IMG/VR virus record: IMGVR_UViG_3300005812_000001
Location: 1 to 53,536 of that record
Direction: 5' to 3' (one strand)
Length of the DNA: 53,536 nucleotides
Source of the DNA: a virus
Taxonomy: Duplodnaviria; Caudoviricetes
The notes beneath the pieces are model-generated. The model did no database searches and had not been told where the DNA came from. It saw only the letters and a program-made list of their open reading frames with translations. This document shows positions 5,813 to 53,506 of this stretch, one piece after another. Each line of letters starts with the position of its first letter. Within the stretch, counting starts at the first letter, position 1. A program made the position numbers and the translations under genes.

Positions 5813-6428
5813 CGTATTGCTCCTGAAACTGGCGCCATGCCTGCTGCACGGCTTGGAATTGTTCGGTGGTGCCGCCATGGTCCGGGTGCGTGCTCTTGCG
5901 CTTTTGCTGGTAGGCAGCTCGCACGGTGTCGAAGTCAGCGCCCTGGGTTACACCAAGAACAGCCCACCAGGAGCTGGCATTGGTGCTGGCGGAGCTGGGC
6001 AGCTCCTTGAAGCCAGCGGTGGCCCGCTGCAGAATCTTGGCGCCCCCCCAGCGCTCAACGGCTCGCAGGGCATCCAGCGTCCCGGCGATTGCTGCGAGGT
6101 TGTCACCCAGGCGGTTGTACTGATCGATTGCGATGCACTGGTATGCCTCGGAATTCTGATCCGGACGCCAATACACGGCGGCACCGGTATCCTCCGGAGG
6201 GCGACGGCCTGAGTAGGGAAGGCCATCGCCGCGAACCGCCATGTTCGTGCTGATAATCACGTTCCAGGACGGGACGCCCATCTTGCGTAGGGCCTCCAGA
6301 ACACGGGTGATGCCGTCAGCGATAGTCAGCCGGCGCCCCTGGTGTTTGAAATTGGCGTCCTTCTGGTCGCTGCTGGCGGTTCTGGACCAGCCAGCAGGCC
6401 AGTGGAGAGGGTGGTTGCTCACGTTCAT
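5805..6428 (-). CDS. J-domain (DnaJ-like) protein
   Basis: C-terminal WWAVLGV..AY..HPDHGG J-domain. Confidence 0.85.
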
Positions 6429-7558
6429 TGCTGGGCTCCGCCGATCCACTGATACCCATCACCGCTGCGGAACTCAGAAACCAGACCTTCGCGCTGCATT
6501 TTTTCGATAAGTCTGGCAGCCCTGTTGTATCCGATTCTCAGCTTGCGCTGGATACGACTGATTGAAGGCTTTTCCTCGCGAGCAATCGTTATTGCTTCGT
6601 TCCACATGGATTCGGAAACATCTTCCGGTGCCGGCGGCAGAGGCTCCGGCTTCGATTCATGCTGCGCTTCGAAATATCCGTAAAGCCCGTCCAGAGCATC
6701 ACGCAGGGCTTTGCCTTGCAGGCTGATACGGGCCTGAAGTTCTGCCACGACATCATCAGCGTCCAGCGCATCGATGTTCTCTTGCAGCAGGTCCAGCGCC
6801 CGGATGCGCTTGATCTCCAGCTTGTCGTTCACATCCAGTTCCAGGCTGTCCTGCCAGCAAAGGTTGATGCGAGTGGCCACCATGCCGGTTTCCAGATAGG
6901 CCAGGTTCTCTTCCTGAACCAGGTCAACGCCGGTGAACTTCACGGCGGCACCTTCGTCTTTGGTCCCCTTCAGGTCTCCGCGATCACCCAGGGTGAAGCC
7001 GTCCGGAATCAAGGCGGTGTCACGTAGCCAGTTGCTGAAGCTGGTGTGGGGTGCAGACGTGGGGGCCGGGTAGGCCACCGGCAGGGAGCCAAGGGCCTTG
7101 CGAAGTGCCGCCACCGCTTCTTCCGCACGGCTGGCAGAAGCAGAGTCCACCAGCAGGCGCTGACGCTCTTTGTCGATGAGCAGGTTGATCCGGCGAGACT
7201 GGGTGAATGCCCGGGGCATCAGCTCGAAGACGATCTGCTCCTTCAGTTCGGCTTTTTCTTTGCGTCCGACCTTGCGCCCTTCCTCTTGCTGGATCTGCTC
7301 AACCTTCTCATCGAGCATTTCCTTGATCACAGGCCCGGGCAGCAGGCGGGTGGTCTCCTGGTGGGTCAGAAGAATGAAGCCGTCCACTTCATAGGCCATG
7401 GCGTCATGGCCCTTAATCGGAGGAACAAAGCCATCAGTGCGAAGGGACTGGCTGCCGCAAGGCTGGCACTGGTTCTGGTACAGCTCTTCTTCCAGTTCGG
7501 CCACCGAGAAGGAAAACGGCTCATCAGCCAGGAAAACGATCAGGTTCTTAATCCACAT
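6425..7558 (-). CDS. rdgC: RdgC with C-terminal FtsK-gamma domain
   Basis: [26 protein letters not shown] RdgC motifs; C-terminal [21 protein letters not shown]. Confidence 0.9.
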
Positions 7559-9402: not shown

Positions 9403-11213
9403 CGTGCACCTCCAGGCAAAGCGATAGCGGTGGCAATATCCCGGACCCACACCGGAGTACTGCTCAAAATGAAGGTCTCACCGGTCATGGCCAGCAACAT
9501 GGTTTCGGCCATAACAGAGGCGATGGCTTGGGCTGCCGGCGGCGGTACCGCGTTGCCGATACGCTCCCTCCAGGCGGAATCGCTGAGGCCGTCCAGCTCC
9601 AATTTCTCTACCGGATCCACCAGCCCCTGCAGGGCTGCCAGTTCAAGGGTGGTGAAGGGGCGGTGCCAGGTGCCGTCCAGGGCGCGGATCATCGCGACAA
9701 GGCGGTCGGTCTGGGCTGGAATAATTTCGGAATAATTTTCATCACTTTCTGTAAAGCGCGGGTCGGCTACTGACCACCGGCCATTGTCGTGGCTGGCAAA
9801 GCCGGACACGGCGCCGCAGCTTGCCGCCCAGGGCACAACGCCGTAGTGGCCACCGGTCAGGTAGTGGTCACCACGCTGGCGCTGGATGCCCGGGCGCGGG
9901 TCGGCCACGGCAAAGGCTCCCTGACCGGTGGTGCTACCCGAAATCACGGTACCGGCGGGACCGTTGAAGTCGGTGACCCGGTATTTGCCGGTGAAGCTGT
10001 TGCCGCGGGGATCGGCTACACACTGGCCGCTGCCGTGGGCGCTGGTGACGGCGCCGCATTCACGGGACCAGGGCACCACACGGAAACAGTTGCTGTGCTT
10101 GGCCGGGCCGTGGTGGCGAGGGTCCGCCACGCTGAAAGAGCCTTGGCCGGGGGACTGCTGGCCGGTGACGGTACCAGTGGGGCCATCCCAGCGGCGCACA
10201 CCGTAGGCTTGCCCCTCGTTCCACTTGCCGCTGACAGCGAAACGCGGGTCGGCCACGGAGAAACTGCCGTTACTGGGTGTGTTGCGCCCGGCGACGGTGC
10301 CCATGGATTGCTCCCAGCCGTTTACGCCCAGGTACCCGGCCCGGTATTCGGGAACAATCAGATAGTCACGAAGGTTGCCATCTTCAACTGCCAGCTTGTT
10401 CAGGCTGCGCCAGTCGCTGCCGGCCTCGACAAAGGCCAGCCGAACCCATGTCTTCCACTGCAGGCGCGGGATGCGATGCATCGGTCCTGCCATGCCGTCA
10501 CCGGGCATAGGCATATCGCCCAAGATGTCGCCCACGGCGCGAAGCGGGCGCTTCACCGGCTCGTACAGGAATGCCGGCACCTTCTCCTGGTGACGGGCCA
10601 CCAGCAGGAAGCGTTTACGGCTCTGGGCCAGTCCGCCCAGCTCACCGCAGTCATGGGTTGTTTCTGCTACGGCATAGCCGTAGGCCTGCAGCAGGGCGCA
10701 GATCTGGTCCAGCAGCGGCCGGCCACGGTTTTGAATCCTTGGGACGTTTTCGAAAACAAAGAGCTCAACCGGATCATCCTTCCAGGCTTCCAGAGCCAAC
10801 CACATGCCACGTAAAGTCAGTCCGTTCAGTGCCTGGTACTTCGGGGTCGCGCTCTTGCTCTGAGAAAGCAGGCCGCTGAAGCCCTTGCAGGGGGCGGAGA
10901 GGAAGACAATGTTGGGGTTCTCGCCACCGGCAGCGGCCCGGATGTCTGCCGGTGTAGCTTCCTTCCAGCCCTTGGGCGGCTCTTCGCCGTGAAAGATGGT
11001 GTATTGCTCACGGTCGAACATATCCAGAACGGTGCCCGGGACGCCGGCCAGTTTCTTGAAGTCGCGGATAGCGCCGGCATCCACATCCACGCCACCGATG
11101 CAGCGGAATTTTGCCTCAAGGGAGCCCACACGGGCGTGGCCCTTGTTGAAGCCGGCAGCACCGCCGCCAAGCCCGCAGAATAAATGAAAATGCTTAAACT
11201 CAATTTGCTTCAT
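9399..11213 (-). CDS. C5 cytosine DNA methyltransferase with internal ADPR repeats
   Basis: LFCGLGG (I), SAPCKGFS (IV), ENVP (VI), QSRKR (VIII), IGNAVPP (X). Confidence 0.92.
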   Translation of the reverse strand: MKQIEFKHFHLFCGLGGGAAGFNKGHARVGSLEAKFRCIGGVDVDAGAIRDFKKLAGVPGTVLDMFDREQYTIFHGEEPPKGWKEATPADIRAAAGGENPNIVFLSAPCKGFSGLLSQSKSATPKYQALNGLTLRGMWLALEAWKDDPVELFVFENVPRIQNRGRPLLDQICALLQAYGYAVAETTHDCGELGGLAQSRKRFLLVARHQEKVPAFLYEPVKRPLRAVGDILGDMPMPGDGMAGPMHRIPRLQWKTWVRLAFVEAGSDWRSLNKLAVEDGNLRDYLIVPEYRAGYLGVNGWEQSMGTVAGRNTPSNGSFSVADPRFAVSGKWNEGQAYGVRRWDGPTGTVTGQQSPGQGSFSVADPRHHGPAKHSNCFRVVPWSRECGAVTSAHGSGQCVADPRGNSFTGKYRVTDFNGPAGTVISGSTTGQGAFAVADPRPGIQRQRGDHYLTGGHYGVVPWAASCGAVSGFASHDNGRWSVADPRFTESDENYSEIIPAQTDRLVAMIRALDGTWHRPFTTLELAALQGLVDPVEKLELDGLSDSAWRERIGNAVPPPAAQAIASVMAETMLLAMTGETFILSSTPVWVRDIATAIALPGGAR

Positions 11214-12565
11214 TTTGCGTCCTTATTCTGGATTCTCTGCTTTACTGGAATGGAAATACGCTGGCCCTCAAGCCGGTAATCGAAAGTGCGTTTGCGGCAT
11301 GCAGAAGGCAGCCATGGGAAGCGCTTCTTAAGCGAGGCCTGCAATCTGGAGCTGTTTGCGTGGCGGAAGTGGCCCTCATAGCTGGCCGCGATTGCCTGAA
11401 TAGCCCTGAACTCATGAGGGGTGGCGCTGATCTGGCCATCCTTGATGTGTTTTTGCTCCCACTCTGCGAATGCCCTACGGGCATGTGACAAGACGCGCTT
11501 TCGCACCAGGGTGTGGGAAGGTCGAACGATGTAGCCCAGGAAATCTATCCCATCGCTCAGTGGGCGAAGGCGGATGTCAGGCTTGAGCCGTAGGCGCAGC
11601 TCACGAGCGATAAAATCCTCAATTTCTGACTGCCACCGAGCTAGCTGCTCTCGGTCGTGGTGCACCAGTACGAAATCATCGACGTAGCGCAGGTATCGCT
11701 CGGCCTTTAGGTTGTGCTTAACGAACTGGTCCAGCTTGTCGAGATAGACATTGGCGAAGAACTGGGAGCTCAAATTCCCAATTGGGAGTCCGCATCCGTG
11801 CGCTGCGTTCTTCAGCCGCTTGTGGTGAGGCACCAGAGCGCGCTCTTCCTTGGTCCCGTGGTATTTCACGCCGGCATGCAGCGGGGGCCGGCGAAGCAGG
11901 GCATGCGTGGCTCGCATAACCTGCTCGGACGCGCCGGCCTGTGCCAGCTTCCGCTTCATGATCGCCCACAGAGTGGGGCGGTGGATTGAGTTGAAGAAGT
12001 TGTGAATGTCCAGTTGCAGATACCAACCGCCACCTTGACCGCTGTGCACCTGCCTCACGAACTTCTGAAGCCGATTAACGGCTGAATGGCTGCCTTTTCC
12101 CCGCCGGTTAGCGTAGCTATCGAAGATGAAGGCAGGCTCCCACAATGCCTCTAGTTGTGGCACCAGCCAGTGATGCACAACACGATCAGCAAAGTCAGGA
12201 GCGTGAATTTCCCTGGCTTTGGGGCGAGTGGCCACAAAGCAGGCGCTACGGCCTGGTTCCCAGGTGCAAGCATTGATGCTGCGTTGTAGATCCAGAAGGC
12301 CATCGGTCCACTTGGCATCGAAAGACAACTGGTTCTGGCTGGGCTTCTTTCCTGCTCTGGCTTTCCGCCAGGCGTCATAAAGGGCTCGTAATGTAACTGC
12401 CCCGTCACCGTGATACTCACCGGAACGAACCGCCCGAACACACGCGTTGTTGTTGCGGTGGTTGTTGTTGACATTGCCGTTGTTGAAGTTGACGACCCAA
12501 ACAGCGGTTTTGCCACGCTCTTTCGACCCTGCCGGACAGCCTTGTTGGTAGTGCGACATCGTCAT
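11210..12565 (-). CDS. DGR reverse transcriptase (451 aa, TR inside its 5' end)
   Basis: DGR-type LPIGNLSSQ, RYVDD, DFLGY; ATG 12565 overlaps the avd stop. Confidence 0.95.
   Translation of the reverse strand: MTMSHYQQGCPAGSKERGKTAVWVVNFNNGNVNNNHRNNNACVRAVRSGEYHGDGAVTLRALYDAWRKARAGKKPSQNQLSFDAKWTDGLLDLQRSINACTWEPGRSACFVATRPKAREIHAPDFADRVVHHWLVPQLEALWEPAFIFDSYANRRGKGSHSAVNRLQKFVRQVHSGQGGGWYLQLDIHNFFNSIHRPTLWAIMKRKLAQAGASEQVMRATHALLRRPPLHAGVKYHGTKEERALVPHHKRLKNAAHGCGLPIGNLSSQFFANVYLDKLDQFVKHNLKAERYLRYVDDFVLVHHDREQLARWQSEIEDFIARELRLRLKPDIRLRPLSDGIDFLGYIVRPSHTLVRKRVLSHARRAFAEWEQKHIKDGQISATPHEFRAIQAIAASYEGHFRHANSSRLQASLKKRFPWLPSACRKRTFDYRLEGQRISIPVKQRIQNKDAK
12419..12508 (-). repeat. DGR template repeat (TR)
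   Basis: 90 nt, 22 adenines, 10 AAY codons; matches VR1 and VR2 except at A positions. Confidence 0.97.
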
Positions 12566-13005
12566 GATTTGGCCCCCGCATGACTGCTTGAGGCGGCGTG
12601 GCCACTCAGTATCTGAGCACGCTCCGGAGAGGCTTCGCCCTCCGGATTCTGGCTCTTTCGGTGAATCTGACGCTTCCAGCCGCCCGCACACCGGCCTACT
12701 TCCTCGGTGGCACGAATCAGCGACTCGAACTGCTTGAAGCTTTTGAAGGCGCGAAGCTGGCTGCCCAGTTGCAGGCTCAGCTTCAGTTCATCTATCGCCC
12801 ATACCAGCTCTGAAACCCAATGTGACTGTCGATTACGATCACGCCAGGCGCGATGACACATGCGCACCACAGTCATAGCTTGGGCGCGCATATCATCGCC
12901 CAGCGTGTATTTGTGGTATCTCACGAATCCACGGACAACTTGCTCTATATCAACAAGCAGGCGCTCCGACTTTTTCGCAATTTCAGGCAATCGTTGAGTC
13001 GTCAT
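12562..13005 (-). CDS. avd: DGR accessory variability determinant (four-helix bundle)
   Basis: RYHKYTLGDDMR..EVGRCAGGW; basic; lies between target and TR. Confidence 0.9.
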   Translation of the reverse strand: MTTQRLPEIAKKSERLLVDIEQVVRGFVRYHKYTLGDDMRAQAMTVVRMCHRAWRDRNRQSHWVSELVWAIDELKLSLQLGSQLRAFKSFKQFESLIRATEEVGRCAGGWKRQIHRKSQNPEGEASPERAQILSGHAASSSHAGAKS

Positions 13006-13029
13006 AGCATCACATCAAAAATCAAAGAG

Positions 13030-13455
13030 TTACTGACCGGAACGAACCGCCCGAACACACGCGCCGTCGTTGCGGTGGTAGTAGTAGACAAGGCCGACGC
13101 CGAAGAGGACGACCCAAACAGCGGCGTCGTTAAAGGCGCAGGGAGTTGAGGTCCAGTAGCCACGGCTGCGGGTGTCAGGGAATTTTTCGGTATCAATAGC
13201 CGGTTCGTCGCGTGACAGATCAAGCAGCGGCTCCAGCTCCTGGCGAGTCGGCAGGCGCCAGCCAGGGCCAAGATCTGCAATCGCTTTCTCTGCCTTCTCG
13301 TAAGTGACGGCGTCACCGTCTAGGAGGGTATGGCTCCATTCCAGATTGCCTTGCGTGGCGGCTGGCTCGGAACGGTCCACCGTGATGGACATGGCCTCTC
13401 CAAAAAGTCCGATTTCAACGGATCGTTCCGGGGTTTTGATGATTAGCTTTTCCAT
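13030..13455 (-). CDS. DGR target 1, DUF1566/Lcl-like C-type lectin protein
   Basis: LEW..GWRLPTRQEL..YWTST..VRAVR; C-terminal VR; GGAG RBS. Confidence 0.93.
   Translation of the reverse strand: MEKLIIKTPERSVEIGLFGEAMSITVDRSEPAATQGNLEWSHTLLDGDAVTYEKAEKAIADLGPGWRLPTRQELEPLLDLSRDEPAIDTEKFPDTRSRGYWTSTPCAFNDAAVWVVLFGVGLVYYYHRNDGACVRAVRSGQ
13036..13125 (-). repeat. Variable repeat VR1
   Basis: 15/90 differences from TR, all at TR adenines. Confidence 0.96.
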
Positions 13456-13490
13456 GGTTATCTCCGCTATGGATGTTTTTTACTGCTTGC

Positions 13491-13790
13491 TTAGAAACTG
13501 AATTCCCATCGGTACCCGGCGGTGACCACGTTGAATCCGTGGTCTTTACCGGTCTCGATTGAACTGACGTGCTGGGCTTCGATCAGGAAGCCGCGGTATT
13601 CCACGCCGGCGACGAAAGAGCCAACGGTGTCGGGCAGATCCATCTTGTGGACGCTCTTGCGGCGCTCGCCTTCGTAGGTCCAGCGTTCCGTCATGCCGAT
13701 CTGGTAGCCCAACCCTCCCTGCAGGTAGAGAGTTGGCTCAGCCACGGCGAAACAAGGAATAATGGCAAGCAGGGCTAAGGGAATTTTCAT
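13491..13790 (-). CDS. Small secreted outer-membrane beta-strand protein
   Basis: Signal peptide MKIPLALLAIIPCFAVA; amphipathic strands; C-terminal YRWEFSF. Confidence 0.7.
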   Translation of the reverse strand: MKIPLALLAIIPCFAVAEPTLYLQGGLGYQIGMTERWTYEGERRKSVHKMDLPDTVGSFVAGVEYRGFLIEAQHVSSIETGKDHGFNVVTAGYRWEFSF

Positions 13791-13810
13791 TTCGGGATCT
13801 CCCAATATCG

Positions 13811-15424
13811 CTACGCGACTTCCTTAAGTATTTCTTGGCTCATGCCAAGCACCCACTCGGCAGCGGTCTGCACGTTGACACCAAAGCGGTCAGCGATAAC
13901 GTGCAGCAGCATCATGTCGCTGGGGCGCTCCGTTTCGGTGGATTCCGCCTTATATTCGGCGCGGGGCTCGCTTTTCACATGGGCGGGATTTTCTGGCTCA
14001 GGCGTAGTGACGGGGGATTCAGCAAGCTTGCGAGCCATTGATTCAGCCTCGGCCTGCTGCTGCGCTTCGCTCTCTGCTTTGGCCTTTTCCTCGGCAGCAA
14101 TGCGCTGGCGCTCAGTTTCCAGGCGGCGCTCTTCTTCCTGCTTGTGGTTGCTGATTCGGTTTGCCACTTCCAGCTTCACCAACTCGCTGTCTTTCAGTGC
14201 CAGCTGCTGCCGGTCGGCAAACAGGAATTCATAGCCAGCGTCGGCAATAGTATTGGCGTTGGCGCGAATCAGGTCGGCAGCTTCATTGATAGCAATTTTT
14301 GCGCGGGCTACTTCGTTGTCCGCTGCATCCTGCAGGGAGGTGATGGTGCGCTTGCCCTTCATGGCAGCATTGAAATCGGTATCGACACGGGGCAGGGCGT
14401 AGCCGTCCAGCGTGGCCTGAACCTTGGCGCCGTGTTCTTCGACGGCCTGCTTGCCCTGCTGGGCAATTTCCAGTTTGATGGCCTGCTTCTGGCTCTTAAC
14501 CAGTTTCTCTGCCATCAGGCGGTTATCGCGGGCCAGCTTGTGCAGCATGTCCTTTCGGCGCTTGGCGTTGTCCACGGCTTCAACCTGTGCCAGCAGTTGG
14601 GCTTCGGCGGAATCCAGGGCGTCTTCCGCCTTCTTCAGCTGCTTCACCTGGTTGTCCAGATCGGCAAAGTCCTGGTCGTTTTTCGGGTCCCGTACCAGCA
14701 CCTCGTCAATGAAGTGTTTCAGGGCAGATTCAAAGCGGTCGAAGTTGTCCACGATGGACAGTTCGCCGCTTACCTGAACGGATACCGCCGGCAGGTCTTG
14801 AGTGGTGGCACCGGTAACTTCCGGCGCCGTCTCGCGGGGCTGGTATTCGGCCAGATCGGCCCGGAACTGCTCCCATCCAGATTCCAGTGCAGCAAAGCGG
14901 GACTCATCGCGCTCAATCCACAGGTGCTTGCAGTTTTCCTTGGTGCCATCAGAAGCCATGAACAGGATCCGTTCGGCACCGGAAAGGGCGAACTGCTGAT
15001 CAAGCTGGATCCGGTAATGCTCGTCCAGCTCGCCGGCGTCAATCTGGGCGGCAAGGTCAGCATTCAGCCACTTGTGTTCCCAGCCGATTTTGCGGCACAT
15101 GGTCAGGCCATCCATGGATGCGAGATACCCGCCCTCGGCATCATCAAGCACCACCGGGTACAGCTCGTCATCAATCATTGCGTCTGCAATGGGACGCGCT
15201 GCCGCTTCGGCCTTGTGGCCCTTATCGAACGCCTTTTGCTGGCGCTCGCTGGGCTCAGGAACCACGCCAGTGGCTTTCTGATCCATCAGGCCATTGCGAG
15301 TCTGGTATTTGCTCTTGCCCACCATCGCCGGCGCCTCACTGGCCGTGTCACGCTCTGCGCGCAGTGCCAGCCACTCCGGGGATCCCTGCTCAACTTTTAC
15401 GAGTTTGCCGAGATTGAATTTCAT
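13811..15424 (-). CDS. YqaJ-family exonuclease with long coiled-coil tail
   Basis: EQGSPEWLALR..TASEA..GHKAE..ASMDG..WEHK..YRIQLDQQ. Confidence 0.9.
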   Translation of the reverse strand: MKFNLGKLVKVEQGSPEWLALRAERDTASEAPAMVGKSKYQTRNGLMDQKATGVVPEPSERQQKAFDKGHKAEAAARPIADAMIDDELYPVVLDDAEGGYLASMDGLTMCRKIGWEHKWLNADLAAQIDAGELDEHYRIQLDQQFALSGAERILFMASDGTKENCKHLWIERDESRFAALESGWEQFRADLAEYQPRETAPEVTGATTQDLPAVSVQVSGELSIVDNFDRFESALKHFIDEVLVRDPKNDQDFADLDNQVKQLKKAEDALDSAEAQLLAQVEAVDNAKRRKDMLHKLARDNRLMAEKLVKSQKQAIKLEIAQQGKQAVEEHGAKVQATLDGYALPRVDTDFNAAMKGKRTITSLQDAADNEVARAKIAINEAADLIRANANTIADAGYEFLFADRQQLALKDSELVKLEVANRISNHKQEEERRLETERQRIAAEEKAKAESEAQQQAEAESMARKLAESPVTTPEPENPAHVKSEPRAEYKAESTETERPSDMMLLHVIADRFGVNVQTAAEWVLGMSQEILKEVA

Positions 15425-16161
15425 GCTTCTGCTCCTTGCTTGAGGCCAAGAATTTGCTGGCGCTGGGATTCGGCCAGGGTGTATTTGGATTCCAGGAAGC
15501 CAATGATGTCTTGAGGGTCGGTGCCGCCTTCCACGCTGGCGCTGAAGTCGGGCAGCTTCTGCTCAAGGCGCCCCTGTGGGTATTCGGGAAGCTCTGACGC
15601 CTGCGCATCACGAGGCGGCGTAATGTCCCGTTCTTCAGGAATGTCCCGCGCCTCTTCGACCGTAATCAGGCCGCCCAGGGCATCGGCGAATTTGTCCCGC
15701 AGGGCATAGCCACGAGCACGCCACATCAGCATCCGCTTGGGGTACTGTTTCCATGGGCCTTGCTTATCCCAGAGGTTCGCTTTTTGGGCATCTGCCTGGC
15801 TGAAGGAAACGGTGTGCTTCTGTGCGTCACCCTTACGCCAGACGGTGCAAGTGGCTGTCATGGTCTGCTCGTCAAAGCTCTCTTCATGGCCGCCAAACTT
15901 CGGATGGTTCTGAACCAGCGCCAGAAGGGCATCGCCATAAATGGCCGGCTTCCCGTTAATGACGGCGATGTTCTGCAATGCCTGGATAGGGTTCAGGCCC
16001 AGCTCACTGCCCATCATCATGGCCACCAATGTGTCCTGTGGTTTGCGCTGGTAGTTCTTCGGCACCATTTCGCTGCCTGACAGCATTTCCGCCATCTGCA
16101 TGGCTTCCTGCATACTGTTTGGCTTCAAGGCGAAGCCGTTGGTCTGCGCAATCGCGTTCAT
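15421..16161 (-). CDS. RecT-like single-strand annealing protein
   Basis: GSELGLNPIQALQNIAVINGKP..WKQYPKRML; start re-called at MNAIAQ with GGAG RBS. Confidence 0.85.
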   Translation of the reverse strand: MNAIAQTNGFALKPNSMQEAMQMAEMLSGSEMVPKNYQRKPQDTLVAMMMGSELGLNPIQALQNIAVINGKPAIYGDALLALVQNHPKFGGHEESFDEQTMTATCTVWRKGDAQKHTVSFSQADAQKANLWDKQGPWKQYPKRMLMWRARGYALRDKFADALGGLITVEEARDIPEERDITPPRDAQASELPEYPQGRLEQKLPDFSASVEGGTDPQDIIGFLESKYTLAESQRQQILGLKQGAEA

Positions 16162-16198
16162 GTTTTTCTCCTGGCAAGGAATCAAAAAAAACAAAGAA

Positions 16199-16558
16199 TT
16201 ACTGACCGGAACGAACCGCCCGAACACACGCGTAGCTGCTGCGGTGGCCGTGGTAGACACCGCCGTCGTCGAAGTAGACGACCCAAACAGCGGTGTCATT
16301 CCAGGCACACGGCGTACTGGTCCAGTAGCAATCGTTCTTGGTGTCCGGAAAGGCGTCGGAGTCGATAGCGGGCTCGTGTTTGCTGTGATCTACCAAGGAG
16401 AACAGCTCGTCTACGGTGGGCAGGCGCCAGCCTTTCCCCAGGGCTTCTACTGCCTCCTGGGCTTTCTCAAAGGTCACGTCCTCGGCCACTGTGGCCTTCG
16501 TCCACTGCAAGCCGGTTTTGGTGTCTGTTACTACGCTGTGATCAATGAAACGCTGCAT
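16199..16558 (-). CDS. DGR target 2, DUF1566/Lcl-like protein (remote)
   Basis: VTDTKTGLQW..GWRLPTVDEL..YWTST; C-terminal VR. Confidence 0.94.
   Translation of the reverse strand: MQRFIDHSVVTDTKTGLQWTKATVAEDVTFEKAQEAVEALGKGWRLPTVDELFSLVDHSKHEPAIDSDAFPDTKNDCYWTSTPCAWNDTAVWVVYFDDGGVYHGHRSSYACVRAVRSGQ
16205..16294 (-). repeat. Variable repeat VR2
   Basis: 12/90 differences from TR, all at TR adenines. Confidence 0.96.
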
Positions 16559-16581: not shown

Positions 16582-16601
16582 AAAAAGGGGCGGGGAGCCC
16601 C
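16582..16601 (-). terminator. Putative intrinsic terminator (tL-like) upstream of target 2
   Basis: Minus strand GGGGC-TCCCC-GCCCC-TTTTT. Confidence 0.55.
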
Positions 16602-16772
16602 GTGAAACAACAGATCAGCGCTGTCGTTCTGTTAACTGTTTCCAGAAGCGGTGGAAGCGATTCGGGTGGCGTGCCCGACGGGCTGCTTCCTGAATGTTTC
16701 GCTCACGCGCTTCGTGGGCATCGGCCAACAGTTGGCGGCCAACGGCGTTATCTGGGACTCGGGTTACCAGGC

Positions 16773-16955
16773 TCATGCGTCTGCTCCTTCAGCTGCTTTC
16801 TTGCGCTTGTTGATCGATGTGAAGCTGCTTTTGCCGGTGACGCTGCTGGTTACGCCGAACTTGCGAATGGAGCCGCCGGCAGCCAGGAAGGCTTCTGTCT
16901 GCTCCTGAATACGCTGGCGTTCCATGCGCTTGGCGAAAGGGGCCGTCTCTTTCAT
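16773..16955 (-). CDS. SutA-like RNA-polymerase-binding peptide (60 aa)
   Basis: ERQRIQEQTEAFLAAGGSI resembles the SutA core; GGAGG RBS; ATGA overlap. Confidence 0.6.
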   Translation of the reverse strand: MKETAPFAKRMERQRIQEQTEAFLAAGGSIRKFGVTSSVTGKSSFTSINKRKKAAEGADA

Positions 16956-17230
16956 GCAGCCTCCTGGGGATAGATCATTAAATCCGCAGGCATCGGGGTA
17001 GGAAGACCAAATAGGTTGTTGATGGCTGCGGTAATAAGCGTCTGCCCTCGGTAGCAGATCAGGGTGACGGGGTGGCCGTGTCCGCAGAGGTGGAGAGCCA
17101 GCAGCCACCGACCACGCCATTCACCTTCTATTTTTTCGGCAGCGCGGCGGTCTACATTCGGATTGCACAACGCGCTTGCTTCCAGCACGGCAGTGCCTGT
17201 CAGGCGCTCAATGGCCATAAGTTCGTTCAT
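16952..17230 (-). CDS. Hypothetical protein, first gene after PL
   Basis: AAGGAG RBS; 92 aa. Confidence 0.65.
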   Translation of the reverse strand: MNELMAIERLTGTAVLEASALCNPNVDRRAAEKIEGEWRGRWLLALHLCGHGHPVTLICYRGQTLITAAINNLFGLPTPMPADLMIYPQEAA

Positions 17231-17286: not shown

Positions 17287-17345
17287 AGTATGAGAAATCT
17301 CATAAGTGGTGTCAATGAGATAACTCATAAAAAATATGAGAAATA
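17287..17345 (-). promoter_or_regulatory. PL promoter with OL operators
   Basis: -35 TTGACA (17315..17310), 17 bp, -10 CATACT; ATGAG-N4-CTCAT at 17290 and 17315; half site at 17336. Confidence 0.88.
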
Positions 17346-18644: not shown

Positions 18645-19325
18645 TCACATTGGATCGTACTTGCCGATTACCACGCCACAAATAGACCAATCCCCGTCCA
18701 CCTTGATGATGGGCTCTGGCCAGTCTCGATTGCCTGGTTTCAAGAAGTACTCACCTTCGGCCAGAGATAGCTGCTTGAGTGTGACTTTGCTGTCGCTATG
18801 GCGCTTGGCCACCACGTATTTACCCGGATCAGGTGCTTTATCCGGGTCCACGATCACCACCTCTCCGTTCCTTATGCGAGGATCATTGCTCTCACCCTCT
18901 ACCTTCAAGGCATAGGTTCGCGGCCCGGCGCCTGGCGGACGGAAGGGCAACCATTCATCTGCATCCCCCGGCTCGAATGGGTCTTCGGCCTCGCAGAAAT
19001 CACCCGCCCGCACGTAGCTGATAATGGGGATCTGGCCTTGGACGATGCCGGGGCCGGGGGATACGTCGTAGTCAGCTGAATTTTCCCGCACCGCTGTGGT
19101 GGGAACCATTTCGCCCTCCCCAAGCGTCAACCAGTCTGTCCTGACTCCGCAGGCTTTCGCTATATCGGGTAGACGTTTAGAGCTCGCAGCCTTGCCACGC
19201 TCAAGGTTCGAGATAACCGCCTGGTCCAACTTGCGGCCGGAAATCTGATACACCTTTTCGGCAAGCTCTTTCTGGGTCAGCCCTGCATGCTCGCGAGCGG
19301 CCACCATTCGCATCTGAATATTCAT
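18645..19325 (-). CDS. cI: CI-like repressor (XRE HTH + S24 peptidase)
   Basis: GLTQKELA..ISNLERG HTH; VRAG cleavage site; VEGES and TLKQL catalytic pair; start re-called at MNIQ. Confidence 0.93.
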   Translation of the reverse strand: MNIQMRMVAAREHAGLTQKELAEKVYQISGRKLDQAVISNLERGKAASSKRLPDIAKACGVRTDWLTLGEGEMVPTTAVRENSADYDVSPGPGIVQGQIPIISYVRAGDFCEAEDPFEPGDADEWLPFRPPGAGPRTYALKVEGESNDPRIRNGEVVIVDPDKAPDPGKYVVAKRHSDSKVTLKQLSLAEGEYFLKPGNRDWPEPIIKVDGDWSICGVVIGKYDPM

Positions 19326-19336
19326 ACCCGATCTTA

Positions 19337-19400
19337 TATGAGGTGGCTCATACTCTTGCAAATGAGAGTTCTCATGTAATATCCTATGAGAAATCTCATA
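19337..19400. promoter_or_regulatory. OR: three operators with PR/PRM
   Basis: ATGAG-N4-CTCAT at 19338, 19362 and 19386 (24-bp spacing); -35 TTGCAA at 19356. Confidence 0.9.
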
Positions 19401-19413
19401 TTCAGGACCGACT

Positions 19414-19632
19414 ATGGACGACAACATCTATAAGCGCCTCGTTAAGCATTTCGGCACCCAGGAGGCCACTGCGCAAGCCGTAAAGGTTGATCAGTCAACA
19501 GTATCTGGATGGTGTCGGGAATTGTTTAAGCCAAAGCCTTCGGCCGCTGTAAGAGCGGAAAAGGCTACTGGGGGAAAATTCACTCGACAGGATCTTTGCC
19601 CAGACTTTCCTTGGGATGAAACAGCCGCCTGA
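19414..19632 (+). CDS. cro: Cro-like repressor
   Basis: FGTQEATAQAVKVDQSTVSGW..DLCPD; divergent from cI. Confidence 0.9.
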   Translation: MDDNIYKRLVKHFGTQEATAQAVKVDQSTVSGWCRELFKPKPSAAVRAEKATGGKFTRQDLCPDFPWDETAA

Positions 19633-25219: not shown

Positions 25220-25294
25220 TGGCATGTAGCACAGCGGTAGTGCAGCGGACTGTTAATCCGTCGGTCGCTGGTTCGATCCCAGCCTTGCCAGCCA
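25220..25294 (+). tRNA. Phage tRNA-Asn(GTT)
   Basis: Cloverleaf: GCAC/GTGC D stem, GCGGA-CTGTTAA-TCCGT anticodon arm, GCTGG-TTCGATC-CCAGC T arm, G73, encoded CCA; one acceptor-stem mismatch. Confidence 0.9.
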
Positions 25295-42782: not shown

Positions 42783-43193
42783 ATGGCAGTAATCATCTAC
42801 ACGGCAAAGCGCGGCCTTGTTGCTGGGCATACTGCCGGCCAGCCCTATGAGCTGGAAGTGGGCATTGAGGGGGTTTCTCCAAGCTTCAATCGTGAGGAAA
42901 ACACGCTCACCACGCTGTCTGGCAAGGACTTCACCACCTTCTACCGCATCGAGGAGCGGGACAGCTTCAGCACGGTGGCCATTAATGATGTGACGCTGCT
43001 TGCCCAGCTGCGTGAGTTCGTTATGTCCGTTGCAGCTGGTGAGCCCTTCACCATGGACCTAATGGGCGATCCAGGCAGCCCAGTGGCCCCGGTCAGCTAC
43101 AGATTGCGCGGCAACCCCAGCAAGCGCCTGGTTAACTCCGCCGGTTTCTACTCCTACTCATGGCAAGTGAAGGTATTCGATGAGAACGCATAA
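42783..43193 (+). CDS. Distal tail (Dit-like) protein
   Basis: Between TMP and the tail tip gene; GGAG RBS. Confidence 0.6.
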   Translation: MAVIIYTAKRGLVAGHTAGQPYELEVGIEGVSPSFNREENTLTTLSGKDFTTFYRIEERDSFSTVAINDVTLLAQLREFVMSVAAGEPFTMDLMGDPGSPVAPVSYRLRGNPSKRLVNSAGFYSYSWQVKVFDENA

Positions 43194-46100
43194 CAGCGCC
43201 TTTGGCACGCTGAATAATGGTGATGTGCGTGAGCCGCGTTTTGTTATCGAGTTCGACTTTGGCGACGGGGATTATCACTACTTCACCAGCCATGAGGTGG
43301 ATGGGCTTGCCGGCGCCAATGTGACCGATGGCGTGCTGACCCGCGTGGACAGCACCAGCCAGAAGCTGGACCCGGACAAGGCCAACAGCAAAATCGGCTC
43401 GATGACCGTTCGCATTGCGGATGAGGGTCTGACCGAGCTGCAGCAGGCCAAGCTGAACGACGACAAAGGCTTGCGTGGAAAGCGTGTGCGTTATTACGCG
43501 GGTTTCTTGGGCATCCCGTGGTCGTCTTTCGCCCTGGTGCAGACGCAACTGATCCAGGGTGCCTCTTACAAGGAGCTGGAATACACCTTCAAGTGCGCTG
43601 ACATCCAGCGGCAGATGCGTGATGACATCTTCGTCCTGAAGGAAACCACGCTCAGCAAGACCCTGGAGGCTGGCGCCACTGAAATTGAGCTGTATTCCGT
43701 CAATGGCCTGCAGCTGGTCAAGCAGCCTGTGAGCCCGTCCGGGCGGACGCTGGCCAGCGGTAAAAGCATCTGCCTGGTGCGACTGGAGGGTGAAAATGAC
43801 GCCTTTGAAATCGCCATGGCGGAGGAAGTGGACGAAAGCACCAACACGCTGAAGCAGGTGACCCGTGGCGTTCTGGGCACCACGCCGCTGACTATTGAGG
43901 TAGATCCAGACGAAAAGCGCGACAACGCGCCCAAGGTCACAGAATACGTCTACTTGGACATGCCAGCGCCGATGCTGGCCTATGCGCTGCTGACTGGCTC
44001 AATTTACGGCTATCCCGGCGAATACCTGCCAGATCACTGGCACATGGGCGTTGGTGCTGAGTTTATCCGCACGTCCGAGTACCTGAACATTGGGGCGGAC
44101 CTGTGGGATCTGGATAGCTTCGATGACGGGCTTTCTGCCTTGGTATCTGGGGTAGAGAAGGAGAGCGGTAAAAAGTTCATCGAAGAGCAGATTTTCCGCA
44201 TGATGGGCTGTTACGCGCCTATCTACTCGGATGGCCAGATTGGTCTGCGCCGGATGACGCTGATCCCTTCGCAGAGCGGCTACGTTCGCGAGCTGAACGA
44301 GGATCATGTTCTGTCCCCGGCAACCCTGACCCATGACATGGGCGGGATGATCAACGACATTCTGGTCTACTGGAACTGGAACCAACGCAAAGAGGCTTAC
44401 ACCCGCGTAAACCGGCTGCTGGATTCGGGCTCTATCGAGCGTAACGGTCAATCGGAAACCCTTGAGATTGAATTCCGTGCCCTGAGTGCCGAGCGCCACA
44501 CCTACACGACCATCAAGAACATTCTGGACAGCTTGCGGGATCGATACGCAGGGCCACCGCTTCGCCTGTCGCTAGACCTTTCCCCCGAAAACAACGTGCT
44601 GGAAGTGGGCGATATTGTCCGCGTGAATCTGGGCGGCATTAAGGACTACAGCACCGATCAGGTGGACGTGACCCTGAACCGTAACTTCGAGGTTCAGCAA
44701 GTCAAAGTGGACTGGCAGACCGGCAAGGTAACGGTTGACCTGTTTGGCTCCAGCCAGCGGGCCAGCGAATTACCGGTGGACCAGTTTGGGTCAGCGTTGC
44801 CGCTGAGCTGGTATCAGAGCGAAGGCACAGAAATCAGCGCGGCCAACTTCCCTGGTGCCGTGGTGGAGAGTGCCGGCGAACGCCACATCACGGCTGACAT
44901 TACCCTGGATGGCCATGCTTCGATTTCCGACGACACGGCCATTTACTGGTGCCCGGAGGATCTGACCATTGATGGGGGCGTTACCGTCACCCTCACCAAA
45001 AACGTGCAGCTTCGTGTGGCTGGTTACTTCCAAAACAACGGCACGCTGGACGGTCGTGGCCAGGGCCAGCCGGGTGGGGCTGGTGTTGATGAGATCACTA
45101 CAGACCCGTTTTATCAGGCTCAATACTTTAAGTGGGATACAGACAACAAGGGCCTGCCCGGGTATCTCCGAGCAGAATCATTGCCGCAAGCTGACGGGTT
45201 AATTACCCAGGCGAGCAATTTTGAGAATTACCGCTGGTATTACCGCTCCTACACCCCGAACCCTTATATCCAAATTATTGACTTCGATTTGCCGGGCTCG
45301 TTTGTTGATTTGGAGCCAGTTGGAGGCTTGGTGGTCAGTGCTGCGCGGACGGCACTGGAGGTGTCAGACGGTCAGCTGAAGGGGTTACCTGGCTATCTGT
45401 GGGGCGGCAGCGGGCACGGTGGCGGCGCTCTTTCCAAAATCCGGTCACCGCAGCTTCATCCTGGTGAGGGAATGCTTTACCTTGGCCCCGGTTCTGATGG
45501 CGGAAACTCCGGTGCCGGCCTCGCTATAATTTGCCGAGGCTTTGCTATTGGTGAAAACGGCCTGATTGATCTATCAGGTGGCGATGCGGAAACCCCGCCG
45601 AATTACTATCAGGCCAACAGCTGGTCGCGCGCCTATCCTGGCACTGGCGCCCCGGGCGGACCCGGTGCCCTCTACTTTGTCATGGATGGCGAAACGGCCA
45701 TTCCCGGCGACCTGACGGAATCAAACTTCCACGCATTTTATGGTGAAGCAGAGGTTCCAGGTTATCAGGGTACCCGTGGAGGCAATGGCTTGGGCTTTAT
45801 GGGGGCTACACTCCCGGGCGTTTATTCATTTTATGAAGGGTACAGCAACGAAATTGTTTCCCCGCTTTATAGCCCGCAGCCCACCCCGCTTAACGTGTGG
45901 CAGTCTGCCTATGTGGTCCATCAGCTTACTGGCACCATCGCGGTCACCCCGGACATTCCTGAAGAAACCGAAAACCCTGCATCGGTCACTATTGCCGAAC
46001 TGACCAACACCCCACGCAGCGCCAATGCCAATCTGTCCACGATTGAGGTGGCGATAGAGCCGCCGGGCGTGAGCAGCTACAAGTACGCCGTGGTGGAATA

Positions 46101-53432: not shown

Positions 53433-53506
53433 GCGGGTGTAGTTCAATGGTAGAACGGCAGCTTCCCAAGCTGCATACGAGAGTTCGATTCTCTTCACCC
53501 GCTCCA
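53433..53506 (+). tRNA. tRNA-Gly(CCC); first 24 nt are the right att core
   Basis: 74-nt cloverleaf, CCC anticodon, encoded CCA. Confidence 0.97.

What the first reader, a model, noticed from the sequence alone, without database searches (positions are those of the whole stretch)
11210..16558. Two-target DGR diversifying small non-structural C-type-lectin proteins in the prophage early operon
Seen: the TR peptide TAVWVVNFNNGNVNNNHRNNNACVRAVRSG becomes AAVWVVLFGVGLVYYYHRNDGACVRAVRSG in VR1 (15 changes) and TAVWVVYFDDGGVYHGHRSSYACVRAVRSG in VR2 (12 changes). Every change is at a TR adenine and the two patterns differ, so each VR was mutagenised separately. The ten AAY codons alone allow 15^10 (about 5.8e11) peptides per target. 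Known: the Bordetella BPP-1 paradigm diversifies a virion receptor-binding protein. Here the targets are 141- and 119-aa stand-alone domains with no signal peptide, TM segment or fibre stalk. They lie on the early strand under PL/CI, far from the structural genes, among Lar, MTase and recombination genes. Inference: they are hypervariable intracellular binders, for example adaptive inhibitors of host defence or of competing phage proteins. This is the best candidate for an undescribed system here.
Basis: partly seen in the sequence, partly recalled or inferred. Interest (0 to 1): 0.92.

Follow-up and report, generated by a model that had tools for sequence, protein, structure and literature searches.

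The report
Phage DGR diversifying two small lectin-fold proteins
A temperate marine phage carries a genuine diversity-generating retroelement that rewrites the tips of two small proteins with no export signal, encoded in its repressor-controlled early operon; the element is a known type, but what these proteins bind is unknown.

Summary
On the minus strand lie Avd (13005-12562), a template repeat (TR, 12508-12419), a reverse transcriptase (about 12397-11210) and two variable repeats (VRs). Each VR ends a small Lcl_C/DUF1566 gene: T1 (141 aa) and T2 (119 aa). Over 90 nt, VR1 differs from the TR at 15 sites and VR2 at 12. All of these are TR adenines.

The early-operon placement is also supported. 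A 16-bp operator palindrome occurs only at the cI-cro gap and at a promoter-like site about 730 nt upstream of T2.

Twenty further distinct elements with RTs 53-83% identical have the same build. Nineteen of the 21 elements have two or three VRs. Their annotated neighbours are recombination, methylase and integrase genes, not co-oriented virion genes. TR and VRs evolve in concert at non-adenine sites, which argues for retrohoming into both targets.

None of 94 relatives of the targets has a signal-peptide-like N-terminus.

Published surveys already list short DUF1566-only DGR targets and prophage-borne DGRs with uncharacterised targets. This is therefore a new member of a known kind. The proposed role as an intracellular or anti-defence binder is plausible but untested. 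No 'Lar' gene was found.

The parts
17287..17329 (-). Leftward early promoter-like site (TTGACA-17-CATACT) overlapped by two copies of the operator palindrome TATGAG-N4-CTCATA (candidate PL/OL)
   Evidence: Promoter-like site. Operator copies at 17289-17304 and 17314-17329. Only 4 matches with at most 1 mismatch occur in the window, against 0.06 expected.
19337..19400 (.). Operators between the cI-like and cro-like genes (candidate OR): the same palindrome at 19337-19352 and 19385-19400, and a weaker copy at 19361-19376
   Evidence: CI matches phrog_4, transcriptional repressor, 2e-40. Cro matches P22_Cro, 3.9e-8.
18645..19427 (-). CI-like repressor (HTH plus a LexA/UmuD-like C-terminal part). 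The true start is probably further in.
   Evidence: phrog_4 2e-40 and phrog_811 UmuD-like 5.3e-10.
16199..16558 (-). Target 2 (T2, 119 aa, 'type A'): stand-alone Lcl_C/DUF1566 protein. It is the fourth ORF after the PL-like promoter and is preceded by a terminator-like hairpin at 16601-16587.
   Evidence: Pfam Lcl_C 9.7e-31, 106.9 bits against a cut-off of 34.9. ORF. Hairpin.
16205..16294 (-). VR2, the last 30 codons before the final Gln codon of T2
   Evidence: 12 mismatches to the TR, all 12 at TR adenines.
13491..16161 (-). Genes between the two targets, not part of the DGR: RecT-like (about 16161-15421), YqaJ-like exonuclease with a long C-terminal extension (15424-13811), and a 104-aa protein with a signal-peptide-like N-terminus (13805-13491)
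   Evidence: Pfam RecT 5.2e-9 and YqaJ 6.1e-9. N-terminal hydropathy of the 104-aa protein. Related contigs X3 and X4 match only 13491-16172.
13030..13455 (-). Target 1 (T1, 141 aa, 'type B'): Lcl_C/DUF1566 domain with a ~35-residue N-terminal extension that is predicted with low confidence
   Evidence: Pfam Lcl_C 1.7e-21. AlphaFold2 with a 63-row alignment, pLDDT 82. Best Foldseek PDB match is 8q4e_A, the Lcl C-terminal domain, E 3.4e-4.
13036..13125 (-). VR1, the last 30 codons before the final Gln codon of T1
   Evidence: 15 mismatches to the TR, all 15 at TR adenines.
12562..13005 (-). Avd accessory protein (147 aa)
   Evidence: Pfam bAvd 4.5e-11, 43.6 bits against a cut-off of 40. NCBIfam DivGenRetAVD 9.7e-12, 45.1 bits, below its cut-off of 80.
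12413..12510 (-). Template repeat (TR) between avd and the RT gene. It has ten AAY codons and 22 adenines in the 90-nt core 12508-12419. Its 3' edge reads GGTGAG where both VRs read GGTCAG.
11210..12397 (-). DGR reverse transcriptase (about 395 aa if it starts at the GTG just after the TR). The mechanical ORF runs on upstream through the TR to 12691.
   Evidence: Pfam RVT_1 4.9e-16. Best solved relative is 8ub7_A 'Reverse transcriptase', 1.1e-37. YVDD and IGNLSSQ are present in the translation. No curated cut-off is reached for retron, group II or DRT models.

Best explanation
This is a canonical, probably functional diversity-generating retroelement (Avd, TR, RT).

Mechanism (inferred from what is established for DGRs). 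The RT, together with Avd, copies the TR RNA into cDNA and misreads adenines. The cDNA then replaces the 3' end of two paralogous genes, T1 and T2. This randomises about a dozen codons on one face of a C-type-lectin-like (Lcl_C/DUF1566) domain.

Expression (inferred from sequence). Both targets and the DGR genes lie tightly packed, one after another, in the leftward early operon. That operon starts at a promoter-like site overlapped by CI-type operators. I therefore expect them to be silent in the lysogen and expressed early after infection or induction.

Role of the targets (inferred, not shown). They carry no export signal and lie away from the virion genes. My best reading is that they are cytoplasmic, non-virion binding proteins. 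Progeny phages would carry different variants, and each variant would be tested in the next infected cell against some variable intracellular host or rival-phage molecule. Counter-defence is the most attractive specific version of this idea.
For: A real DGR:
- All 15 (VR1) and 12 (VR2) TR-VR differences are at TR adenines.
- RT, Avd and Lcl_C domains are present.
- Both VRs lie at the C-terminus of their ORF.

Activity on both targets:
- The window's TR differs from that of its nearest relative L080 (RT 83% identical) at 7 of 90 sites.
- At all 6 non-adenine sites, both VRs of each element carry their own TR's letter.
- At the seventh site the window's TR has A and its VRs differ (T and G). 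L080's TR has C and both its VRs have C.
- In the L083/L084/L086/L087 subclade, 22 of 27 variable VR columns face TR adenines. By my reading of the printed rows, the other five mostly follow each element's own TR, with one exception in L083.

Early operon:
- The operator palindrome occurs at only 4 places, 2 at the promoter-like site 17315-17287 and 2 in the cI-cro gap.
- Spacers are short: T2 stop to RecT start is 37 nt, and T1 stop to avd start is 24 nt (coordinates).
- No other promoter-like site was found on the minus strand between 17287 and 9000.

Non-structural context is conserved:
- In 21 distinct elements the cassette has the same build, and 19 have 2-3 VRs.
- Of 30 flanking proteins from 12 loci, 22 matched a Pfam family. 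Matches include C5 and MT-A70 methylases, RecT, ERF, ParB_N, DUF2303, HNH and integrases.
- The only virion protein among them is a tail protein on the opposite strand, 5.7 kb beyond the RT in L096.
- A CI homologue lies 6-9.5 kb upstream on the same strand in 6 elements.

Cytoplasmic targets:
- 0 of 94 relatives, the window's two proteins included, have a hydrophobic N-terminal window or a lipobox-like motif.
- Among more distant DUF1566 ORFs in genome loci without the RT, 57 of 99 have such a window.
- Close relatives are all short. The search among longer proteins gave only 2 weak hits.
Against: - No direct evidence of expression, of ongoing mutagenesis in this element, or of any ligand.
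- The only public runs that hold the element are kept as contigs. They show no VR variants, and contigs could not show rare ones.
- The localisation test is a hydropathy heuristic, not a trained predictor.
- The simple scan can miss promoters, so expression in the lysogen is not excluded. Promoter-like sites were no more frequent than in shuffles: 3 found against 4.2 expected.
- No hairpin stands out downstream of either VR (z-scores 0.71 and -1.18).
- The Avd match is below NCBIfam's curated cut-off.
- The targets match nothing in PADLOC. That library holds defence proteins, not counter-defence proteins, so this is uninformative.
- Proteins made early could still be built into virions.
Confidence: 0.5

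Rival explanations
1. The small lectin-fold proteins are virion-associated adhesins. They are made early, or also late, and dock non-covalently onto the tail or fibres, for example through the N-terminal extension of type B. The DGR would then switch host range, as in Bordetella phage BPP-1.
For: - Phage DGR targets are mostly virion proteins (Roux et al., passages).
- The fold matches adhesive domains: the Lcl C-terminal domain 8q4e_A and the Bdellovibrio Bd2740 C-terminal domain 8oks_B.
- T1 has a conserved N-terminal extension of unknown role, predicted with low confidence.
Against: - In all 21 elements the targets sit with recombination, methylase and integrase genes, not with tail genes.
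- In the window they are on the strand opposite to the structural module at 27-52 kb and downstream of CI-type operators.
- Close relatives have no fibre stalk or fused tail domain.
Confidence: 0.15
2. The proteins act outside the cell. They are released at lysis or exported by a route without a classical signal peptide, and they bind surface glycans or receptors. Possible effects are blocking re-adsorption to debris, excluding rival phages, or sticking to particles.
For: - Most characterised DUF1566/CLec2 proteins are surface-exposed, for example Legionella LdtA as described by Wu et al. (passages).
- 57 of 99 distant DUF1566 relatives have signal-like N-termini.
- A small protein with a signal-peptide-like N-terminus lies next to T1 here and in L080.
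Against: - 0 of 94 close relatives have an export signal by the heuristic.
- Released proteins would break the link between a variant and the genome that encodes it. This weakens selection for a DGR (inference).
Confidence: 0.1
3. The cassette serves the lysogen. The targets are expressed from an unrecognised promoter in the prophage state and act as variable sensors or decoys against superinfecting phages.
For: - Cytosolic VR-bearing recognition proteins have been proposed as immune components (Belalov et al. 2023, passages).
- Cellular DGRs that diversify putative antigen sensors are reported (search listing and abstract only).
- A terminator-like hairpin directly upstream of T2 could mark a separate unit.
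Against: - No effector domain is fused to the targets or conserved next to them.
- The targets match nothing in PADLOC.
- No promoter-like site lies between the PL-like site and the targets.
- The operator layout implies repression in the lysogen.
Confidence: 0.1
4. The element is a recently inactivated relic. The adenine-specific pattern records past homing only, and the proteins have a fixed function now.
For: - No VR heterogeneity is visible in the two runs of the source sample, though these are contigs only.
- Avd scores below NCBIfam's cut-off.
- No VR-flanking hairpin was found.
Against: - All components are intact ORFs and YVDD is present.
- There are no non-adenine differences between the TR and either VR over 90 nt, although related elements' TRs have diverged at such sites.
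- The same build is kept in 21 elements.
Confidence: 0.1

Closest known systems
Bordetella phage BPP-1 DGR (mtd-avd-TR-brt)
   Same: It has the same parts and logic: Avd, a TR between avd and the RT gene, adenine-specific TR-to-VR differences, and a VR at the C-terminus of a lectin-fold protein. The RT's best solved relative is a 328-residue 'Reverse transcriptase', 8ub7_A, at 1.1e-37. I believe from memory that this is bRT, but the tool does not say so.
   Different: - Mtd is a tail-fibre receptor-binding protein encoded with the structural genes (recalled, and stated in Roux et al.). Here there are two stand-alone 119- and 141-aa targets in the early operon.
- The VR domain is of the DUF1566/CLec2 kind, not the Mtd kind.
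- No VR-flanking hairpin was found.
- RT identity to any deposited phage is at most 38.5%.
Legionella pneumophila DGR with the target LdtA (Wu et al. category 'd', CLec2 VR; Roux et al. clade 3)
   Same: The VR lies in a DUF1566-type C-type-lectin-like domain (Wu et al. passages). The element sits on mobile DNA of a gammaproteobacterium.
   Different: LdtA is a surface lipoprotein (Wu et al. passages). The window's targets and 94 relatives have no signal- or lipobox-like N-terminus. I did not test whether this RT falls in Roux's clade 3.
Short DUF1566-only DGR targets and prophage-encoded clade-3 DGRs with uncharacterised targets (target cluster PC_00009)
   Same: This is very probably the same kind of element. 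Wu et al. state that about half of category 'd' targets are short and consist of DUF1566 alone. Roux et al. note prophage-encoded references that target uncharacterised proteins. VR-VR-TR-RT cassettes are common.
   Different: The passages I read do not mention placement in the repressor-controlled early operon, the pairing of two paralogous target types, or the lack of export signals. The supplementary tables were closed, so I could not check whether relatives of this element are listed.
DGRs with non-surface targets (viral CotH-like kinase targets, PC_00012; cellular putative antigen sensors)
   Same: They are precedents for DGR targets that act inside cells rather than in adsorption (Roux et al. 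passages; title and abstract only of the 'antigen sensors' paper).
   Different: Those targets are multidomain proteins with a signalling or effector domain. Here the variable lectin-fold domain stands alone.

Membership tests
Diversity-generating retroelement (DGR) | A template repeat and one or more variable repeats that differ almost only at template adenines | tested here: met
   All 15 (VR1) and all 12 (VR2) differences are at TR adenines over 90 nt; P = 3.7e-12 and 2.4e-9.
Diversity-generating retroelement (DGR) | A reverse transcriptase gene next to the TR, with an intact active site | tested here: met
   RVT_1 4.9e-16. YVDD and IGNLSSQ are present in the translation; that the second is a DGR-type motif is recalled, not tested. 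Best solved relative 8ub7_A at 1.1e-37. No retron, group II or DRT model reaches its cut-off.
Diversity-generating retroelement (DGR) | An accessory protein (Avd) | tested here: met
   Pfam bAvd, 43.6 bits against a cut-off of 40. NCBIfam DivGenRetAVD, 9.7e-12 but 45.1 bits against a cut-off of 80.
Diversity-generating retroelement (DGR) | VR at the C-terminal end of a target protein with a C-type-lectin-like fold | tested here: met
   Both VRs run to the last codons of their ORFs. Lcl_C at 1.7e-21 and 9.7e-31. Foldseek finds 8q4e_A and then C-type lectins.
Diversity-generating retroelement (DGR) | A 3' homing boundary (IMH in the VR versus IMH* in the TR) | tested here: inconclusive
   An identical G+C-rich 3' stretch is followed by TR GGTGAG versus VR GGTCAG in both VRs. 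At least one TR-G mismatch is counted in each of 43 VR alignments from 21 elements. In the 8 distinct elements whose sequences I printed, it is seen at this same place. Its function was not tested.
Diversity-generating retroelement (DGR) | A hairpin or cruciform just downstream of the VR (as in BPP-1; recalled, not universal) | tested here: not met
   DNA folds of the 91 nt around each VR end give z-scores of 0.71 and -1.18 against shuffles.
Diversity-generating retroelement (DGR) | Ongoing mutagenic retrohoming | tested here: inconclusive
   Indirect support comes from concerted TR/VR evolution between related elements. Direct test: the runs are contigs only and show no variants.
Lcl_C / DUF1566 (PF07603) | A Pfam match above the gathering score | tested here: met
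   T1 77.1 bits and T2 106.9 bits against a cut-off of 34.9. A profile of 63 relatives hits 8q4e_A at 1.3e-5.
Lambdoid early-left (PL) operon gene | Lies downstream of a promoter overlapped by operators shared with the cI-cro region, on the same strand as recombination genes and the integrase | tested here: met
   Operators are found at only two places. Promoter-like site. CI and Cro. RecT, YqaJ, RdgC and integrase lie on the same strand. Transcription itself was not measured.
Phage counter-defence (anti-defence) protein | Similarity to a known inhibitor family, or a shown effect on a defence system | not testable with these tools
   No library of anti-defence proteins was on hand. PADLOC (defence systems) gave no hit for T1 or T2, which says nothing either way.

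The most novel reading that the evidence does not exclude
A lineage of temperate marine phages uses a DGR as a pre-made repertoire of cytoplasmic early proteins, not for adsorption. Each progeny genome carries its own variants of two small lectin-fold binders. These are expressed from PL at the start of the next infection and neutralise variable host immune proteins or rival-phage proteins. This would be the first DGR shown to serve counter-defence.
Probability: 0.15. Interest if true: 0.9.

Novelty: new member of a known kind. Interest (0 to 1): 0.5.

Why it matters
DGRs are the only known natural system of targeted protein hypermutation in prokaryotes and their viruses. For phages, the accepted purpose is switching host range through virion proteins.

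This element belongs to a coherent, uncultured lineage. No relative of the target was found in 50,697 deposited phage records. In this lineage the diversified proteins are small, lack export signals and are encoded among early recombination and methylase genes.

If they act inside the cell, phage DGRs would have a second, unexplored use. The lineage also occurs in genome contigs of named strains: L003 is from Rheinheimera soli strain 4138. Close homologues of the targets are named in Marinobacter and Microbulbifer genomes. The question is therefore open to ordinary experiments.

The element itself (parts, mechanism, target domain class) is already covered by published surveys.

Tried and rejected
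- T1-T2 heterodimer. Complex prediction with the alignments A4 and A3 gave 'no support' (score 0.01 against a mark of 0.32; controls were not run). This is no evidence either way.
- Single-sequence fold of T2. pLDDT was 57, too poor to use. I replaced it with the alignment-based model of T1.
- VR heterogeneity in public reads. One search gave 20 runs, none on record as RNA ('no RNA holder listed'). I laid 4 of them. All are contigs. The two runs of the likely source sample show no VR differences, and their contigs break at the repeats. X3 and X4 cover only 13491-16172. Activity could therefore not be read from them.
- Megablast of 11210-16558 against deposited phages: no match.
- tblastn of T2 against the same collection: no match.
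- Sequence search of T2 against solved structures: only a chance-level hit (E 0.57) to a tail tube protein.
- Sequence search of Avd against solved structures: none.
- Rfam over the window: only two tRNAs.
- Hairpins at the VR ends: not better than shuffles.
- PF26707, listed for a few relatives of T1, was not found by the Pfam copy at hand in P0109 or P0064. The N-terminal extension of type B therefore remains unnamed.
- 'Lar': no match in the small ORFs scanned.
- My first greedy ORF caller picked antisense frames in G+C-rich loci. For the neighbour survey I used a caller based on third-position G+C. I then chose 30 of the larger flanking ORFs by eye, so that survey is a sample and not a census.
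- Literature. Four searches found no paper on DGR targets in a phage early operon or on a counter-defence role. Subscription journals and supplements were not searchable.

Full report

Yes. A repeat search finds three copies at 12405-12507, 13022-13124 and 16191-16293. A 27-nt core of it occurs exactly three times in the window, against none in 100 shuffles. It occurs nowhere else in the record. The record is the window itself: an IMG/VR virus record of 53,536 bases, rated 100% complete.

VR1 differs from the TR at 15 positions and VR2 at 12. Every one of these is among the 22 TR adenines. The hypergeometric probability is 3.7e-12 for VR1 and 2.4e-9 for VR2.

The two VRs differ from each other at 15 sites and share only part of their changed adenines: 9 changed in both, 6 only in VR1, 3 only in VR2 and 4 unchanged. 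They were therefore rewritten separately. The TR holds ten AAY codons, as stated.

In the wider 98-nt alignment the only non-adenine differences are two at the 3' edge. They are the same in both VRs: TR GGTGAGTAT against VR GGTCAGTAA.

**2. Anatomy**

All parts are on the minus strand, in this order of transcription:

| Part | Coordinates | Evidence |
|---|---|---|
| T2, 119 aa | 16558-16199 | Lcl_C 9.7e-31 |
| RecT-like | about 16161-15421 | Pfam RecT |
| YqaJ-like exonuclease, 537 aa | 15424-13811 | Pfam YqaJ |
| 104-aa protein, signal-peptide-like N-terminus | 13805-13491 | hydropathy |
| T1, 141 aa | 13455-13030 | Lcl_C 1.7e-21 |
| Avd | 13005-12562 | bAvd 4.5e-11 |
| TR | 12510-12413 | |
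| RT | about 12397-11210 | RVT_1 4.9e-16; YVDD present |
| C5 cytosine methylase | 11213-9399 | Pfam |

Further downstream on the same strand lie a DUF4942 protein, an RdgC-FtsK-gamma fusion, an Ead/Ea22-like protein and an integrase at 1199-186.

The mechanical RT ORF runs on upstream through the TR to 12691. By comparison with the RT domain position, the enzyme most likely starts at the GTG just after the TR. The 'TR peptide' is then only a conceptual translation.

The right arm, on the plus strand, holds Cro, a replication initiator, terminase, portal, head morphogenesis protein, tape measure, a 2,206-aa tail protein and tail fibres. No further TR-like copy lies there.

**3. Is it under PL/CI?**

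The palindrome TATGAG-N4-CTCATA has only four matches with at most one mismatch in the whole window, against 0.06 expected.

- Two matches lie between the CI-like gene (phrog_4, 2e-40) and the Cro-like gene (P22_Cro, 3.9e-8). A weaker third copy sits between them.
- Two matches overlap the two hexamers of a minus-strand promoter-like site at 17315-17287, TTGACA-17-CATACT.

From there, going leftward, come:

- a 92-aa ORF;
- a small ORF with a SutA RNA-polymerase-binding domain (5.5e-8);
- an arginine-rich 53-aa ORF;
- a terminator-like hairpin at 16601-16587;
- then T2, whose start is about 730 nt from the promoter.

The genes from T2 to the RT are tightly packed. The simple scan finds no further promoter-like site on that strand down to 9000. 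Promoter-like sites are not enriched overall (3 found against 4.2 expected), so it is the operator overlap that gives this site its weight. Transcription was not measured.

I found no 'Lar'. I also cannot show integration, because the record has no evident host flanks.

**4. The lineage**

A protein-guided scan of one genome per species gave 79 loci with relatives of T2. Nine of these also hold an RT homologue. Five of them (L001-L005) have RTs 64-75% identical to the window's. They come from gammaproteobacterial MAGs, a Haliea MAG and Rheinheimera soli.

A scan of IMG/VR with the RT gave 18 loci at 53-83% identity. Three of them (L088, L090, L091) are identical to L087 over the 2.3 kb compared. 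After dropping these duplicates, the window plus 20 loci make 21 distinct elements.

All 21 show the order target(s)-Avd-TR-RT. Together they have 43 VRs: 16 elements with two, 3 with three and 2 with one. There are 570 TR-VR mismatches at adenines and 59 elsewhere. Each of the 43 alignments contains at least one TR-G mismatch. In the 8 distinct elements whose sequences I printed, that mismatch is at the same 3' edge as in the window.

The nearest relative, L080, repeats the window's split layout: CI, then a type-A target, YqaJ, the 104-aa protein, a type-B target, Avd and RT. Most others have the two targets in tandem, type B and then type A.

Two-target cassettes are reported as common among DGRs (passages of PMC11661182).

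**5. Neighbours in relatives**

I scanned 30 of the larger flanking ORFs from 12 loci, chosen by eye. Twenty-two matched a Pfam family:

- C5 methylase (L081, L083);
- MT-A70 (L082);
- DUF2303 (L081, L005);
- ERF (L096);
- RecT (L092);
- an SMC-like ATPase (L097);
- ParB_N (L097, and weakly L094);
- HNH_3 (L003, L005);
- integrases, just downstream on the same strand (L096, L089) or on the opposite strand (L003);
- a Toprim/DUF5906 primase-like protein and an HTH protein (both L094);
- a HerA-like ATPase (L093);
- DUF7666 with collagen repeats (L089);
- DUF1351 (L092);
- a host UvrC (L089);
- one tail protein (L096).

The tail protein lies on the opposite strand, 5.7 kb beyond the RT and past an integrase. 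That is the convergent lambda-like arrangement.

A CI homologue lies 6-9.5 kb upstream on the same strand in 6 elements, and RdgC is nearby in 4. No co-oriented virion gene was seen next to any cassette. Placement in the early, non-structural region is thus a trait of the lineage and not an accident of this record.

**6. Is it active?**

Direct evidence is lacking. The only runs that hold the element are kept as contigs, and these show no VR variants.

Indirect evidence is good. The window's TR and L080's TR differ at 7 of 90 sites. At all six non-adenine sites, both VRs of each element carry their own TR's letter. At the seventh site the window's TR has A, and its VRs read T and G. L080's TR has C there, and both its VRs read C.

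The L083/L084/L086/L087 subclade gives a similar picture. The VR has 27 variable columns in 100, against 300 in the remaining 2,213 columns. Twenty-two of the 27 face TR adenines. By my reading of the printed rows, the other five mostly follow each element's own TR, with one exception in L083.

This concerted evolution is what repeated retrohoming predicts, and it includes the remote target. Within the window, neither VR differs from the TR at any non-adenine site over 90 nt.

**7. The targets**

An AlphaFold2 model of T1 from 63 aligned relatives has a mean pLDDT of 82. The N-terminal ~35 residues are of low confidence.

- Best match among solved structures: the Legionella Lcl C-terminal domain, 8q4e_A (E 3.4e-4). 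C-type-lectin-like chains and the Bdellovibrio Bd2740 C-terminal domain follow.
- A sequence profile of the relatives also finds 8q4e_A, at 1.3e-5.
- Best match among predicted viral structures: a 115-aa DUF1566 protein of an uncultured phage, E 2.6e-6.

Database searches gave 225 relatives of T1 and 87 of T2 at E no more than 1e-5. All listed ones carry PF07603. The named ones come from marine Gammaproteobacteria: Alcanivoracaceae, Marinobacter, Microbulbifer, Halioglobus and others. The search among longer proteins gave only two weak hits.

By a hydropathy heuristic, 0 of 94 aligned relatives have a signal-like N-terminal window or a lipobox-like motif. The neighbouring 104-aa protein served as a positive example. 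The single 19-residue window flagged in T1 has its strongly hydrophobic run inside the VR (AAVWVVLFGVGLVYYY); this is my reading of the sequence, not a printed position.

In contrast, 57 of 99 more distant DUF1566 ORFs in genome loci without the RT have a signal-like window, and some are fused to kinases. In the RT-bearing loci the figure is 3 of 21.

The targets fall into two conserved paralogous types. Type A begins M-x-R-F. Type B has the N-terminal extension.

**8. What is known**

- Wu et al. 2018 (passages) define target category 'd' (DUF1566, DUF823, Fib_succ_major; all CLec2 VRs; 14% of DGRs; exemplified by Legionella LdtA). They state that about half of these targets are short and consist of DUF1566 alone.
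- Roux et al. (preprint, passages) place the Legionella DGR in a mixed viral and cellular clade 3, together with prophage-encoded references that target uncharacterised proteins (PC_00009). They note one non-structural viral target class, the CotH-like kinases.
- Belalov et al. 2023 (passages) speculate about cytosolic VR-bearing recognition proteins.

The element type is therefore catalogued. What the passages I read do not mention is the systematic placement in the repressor-controlled early operon, the A/B pairing, or the contrast in export signals. Four literature searches found no paper on these points. Supplements were closed.

No deposited phage record holds a relative of T2. The best RT match there is 38.5% identical.

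**9. Mechanism and verdict**

Shown:

- a complete DGR with two independently rewritten targets;
- its position downstream of CI-type operators;
- conservation of this build and context in 21 elements;
- the lectin-like fold;
- the absence of export signals by a heuristic.

Inferred:

- co-transcription from PL;
- activity, from concerted evolution;
- cytoplasmic location;
- a binding role.

I hold the reading 'early-expressed, non-virion, cytoplasmic hypervariable binders' at about 0.5, and the specific counter-defence version at about 0.15. The rivals are virion-docking adhesins (0.15), extracellular action after lysis (0.1), a lysogen-protecting role (0.1) and a recent relic (0.1).

It is a new member of a known kind. 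The open question it raises is interesting and can be tested by ordinary experiments.

Noticed in passing
window 16773-16955 (minus strand; within the mechanical ORF 16773-17120): The second small gene after the PL-like promoter carries a SutA RNA-polymerase-binding domain (PF20661, 5.5e-8, 32.5 bits against a cut-off of 29.3). This suggests an early phage protein that acts on the host RNA polymerase.
   Followed up: no
window 16587-16776 (minus strand): An arginine-rich 53-aa ORF (16776-16615) is followed by a terminator-like hairpin (16601-16587) just before T2. The layout recalls an N-type antiterminator and its first terminator, but nothing was tested.
   Followed up: no
window 13491-13805 (minus strand): A 104-aa protein has a signal-peptide-like N-terminus and a C-terminal ...YRWEFSF, which resembles the end of an outer-membrane beta-barrel protein. 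It matches no family in Pfam, PHROGs, NCBIfam or PADLOC. It is 61% identical in L080 and is present in the related contigs X3 and X4.
   Followed up: partly
window 13491-16172: Contigs of two aquatic metagenomes (X3, X4) match only this block, which holds the 104-aa protein, YqaJ and RecT. The matches stop within a few bases of the two DGR targets. The recombination module therefore looks like a mosaic unit bounded by the targets.
   Followed up: partly
window 12413-12425, 13030-13042, 16199-16211, and the same place in related loci: A single difference, TR G against VR C (GGTGAG against GGTCAG), marks the 3' edge of the repeat. It was seen at that place in all 8 distinct elements whose sequences I printed. 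At least one TR-G mismatch was counted in all 43 VR alignments of the 21 elements.
   Followed up: partly
window 6425-7558 (minus strand): RdgC (6.8e-92) is fused to an FtsK gamma domain (3.2e-16). RdgC homologues recur near the DGR in L001, L003 and L082.
   Followed up: no
window 13811-15424 (minus strand): The YqaJ-like exonuclease domain covers only residues 17-151 of a 537-aa protein. The long, charged C-terminal part has no family match.
   Followed up: no
window 25220-25294 and 53433-53506: A tRNA-Asn gene lies inside the phage, between the replication and late regions. A tRNA-Gly gene lies at the right end, next to a RadC-like gene (52739-53194), and may mark the attachment site.
   Followed up: no
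window 43180-49800: A 2,206-aa tail protein has several domain-level PHROG matches, including tail needle and glycerophosphodiester phosphodiesterase-like parts. It has no TR-like repeat.
   Followed up: no
L008 (Thiomicrospira microaerophila contig), several places: Distant DUF1566 relatives are fused to N-terminal parts that look like protein kinases, in several paralogous copies and with no RT homologue in the locus.
   Followed up: no
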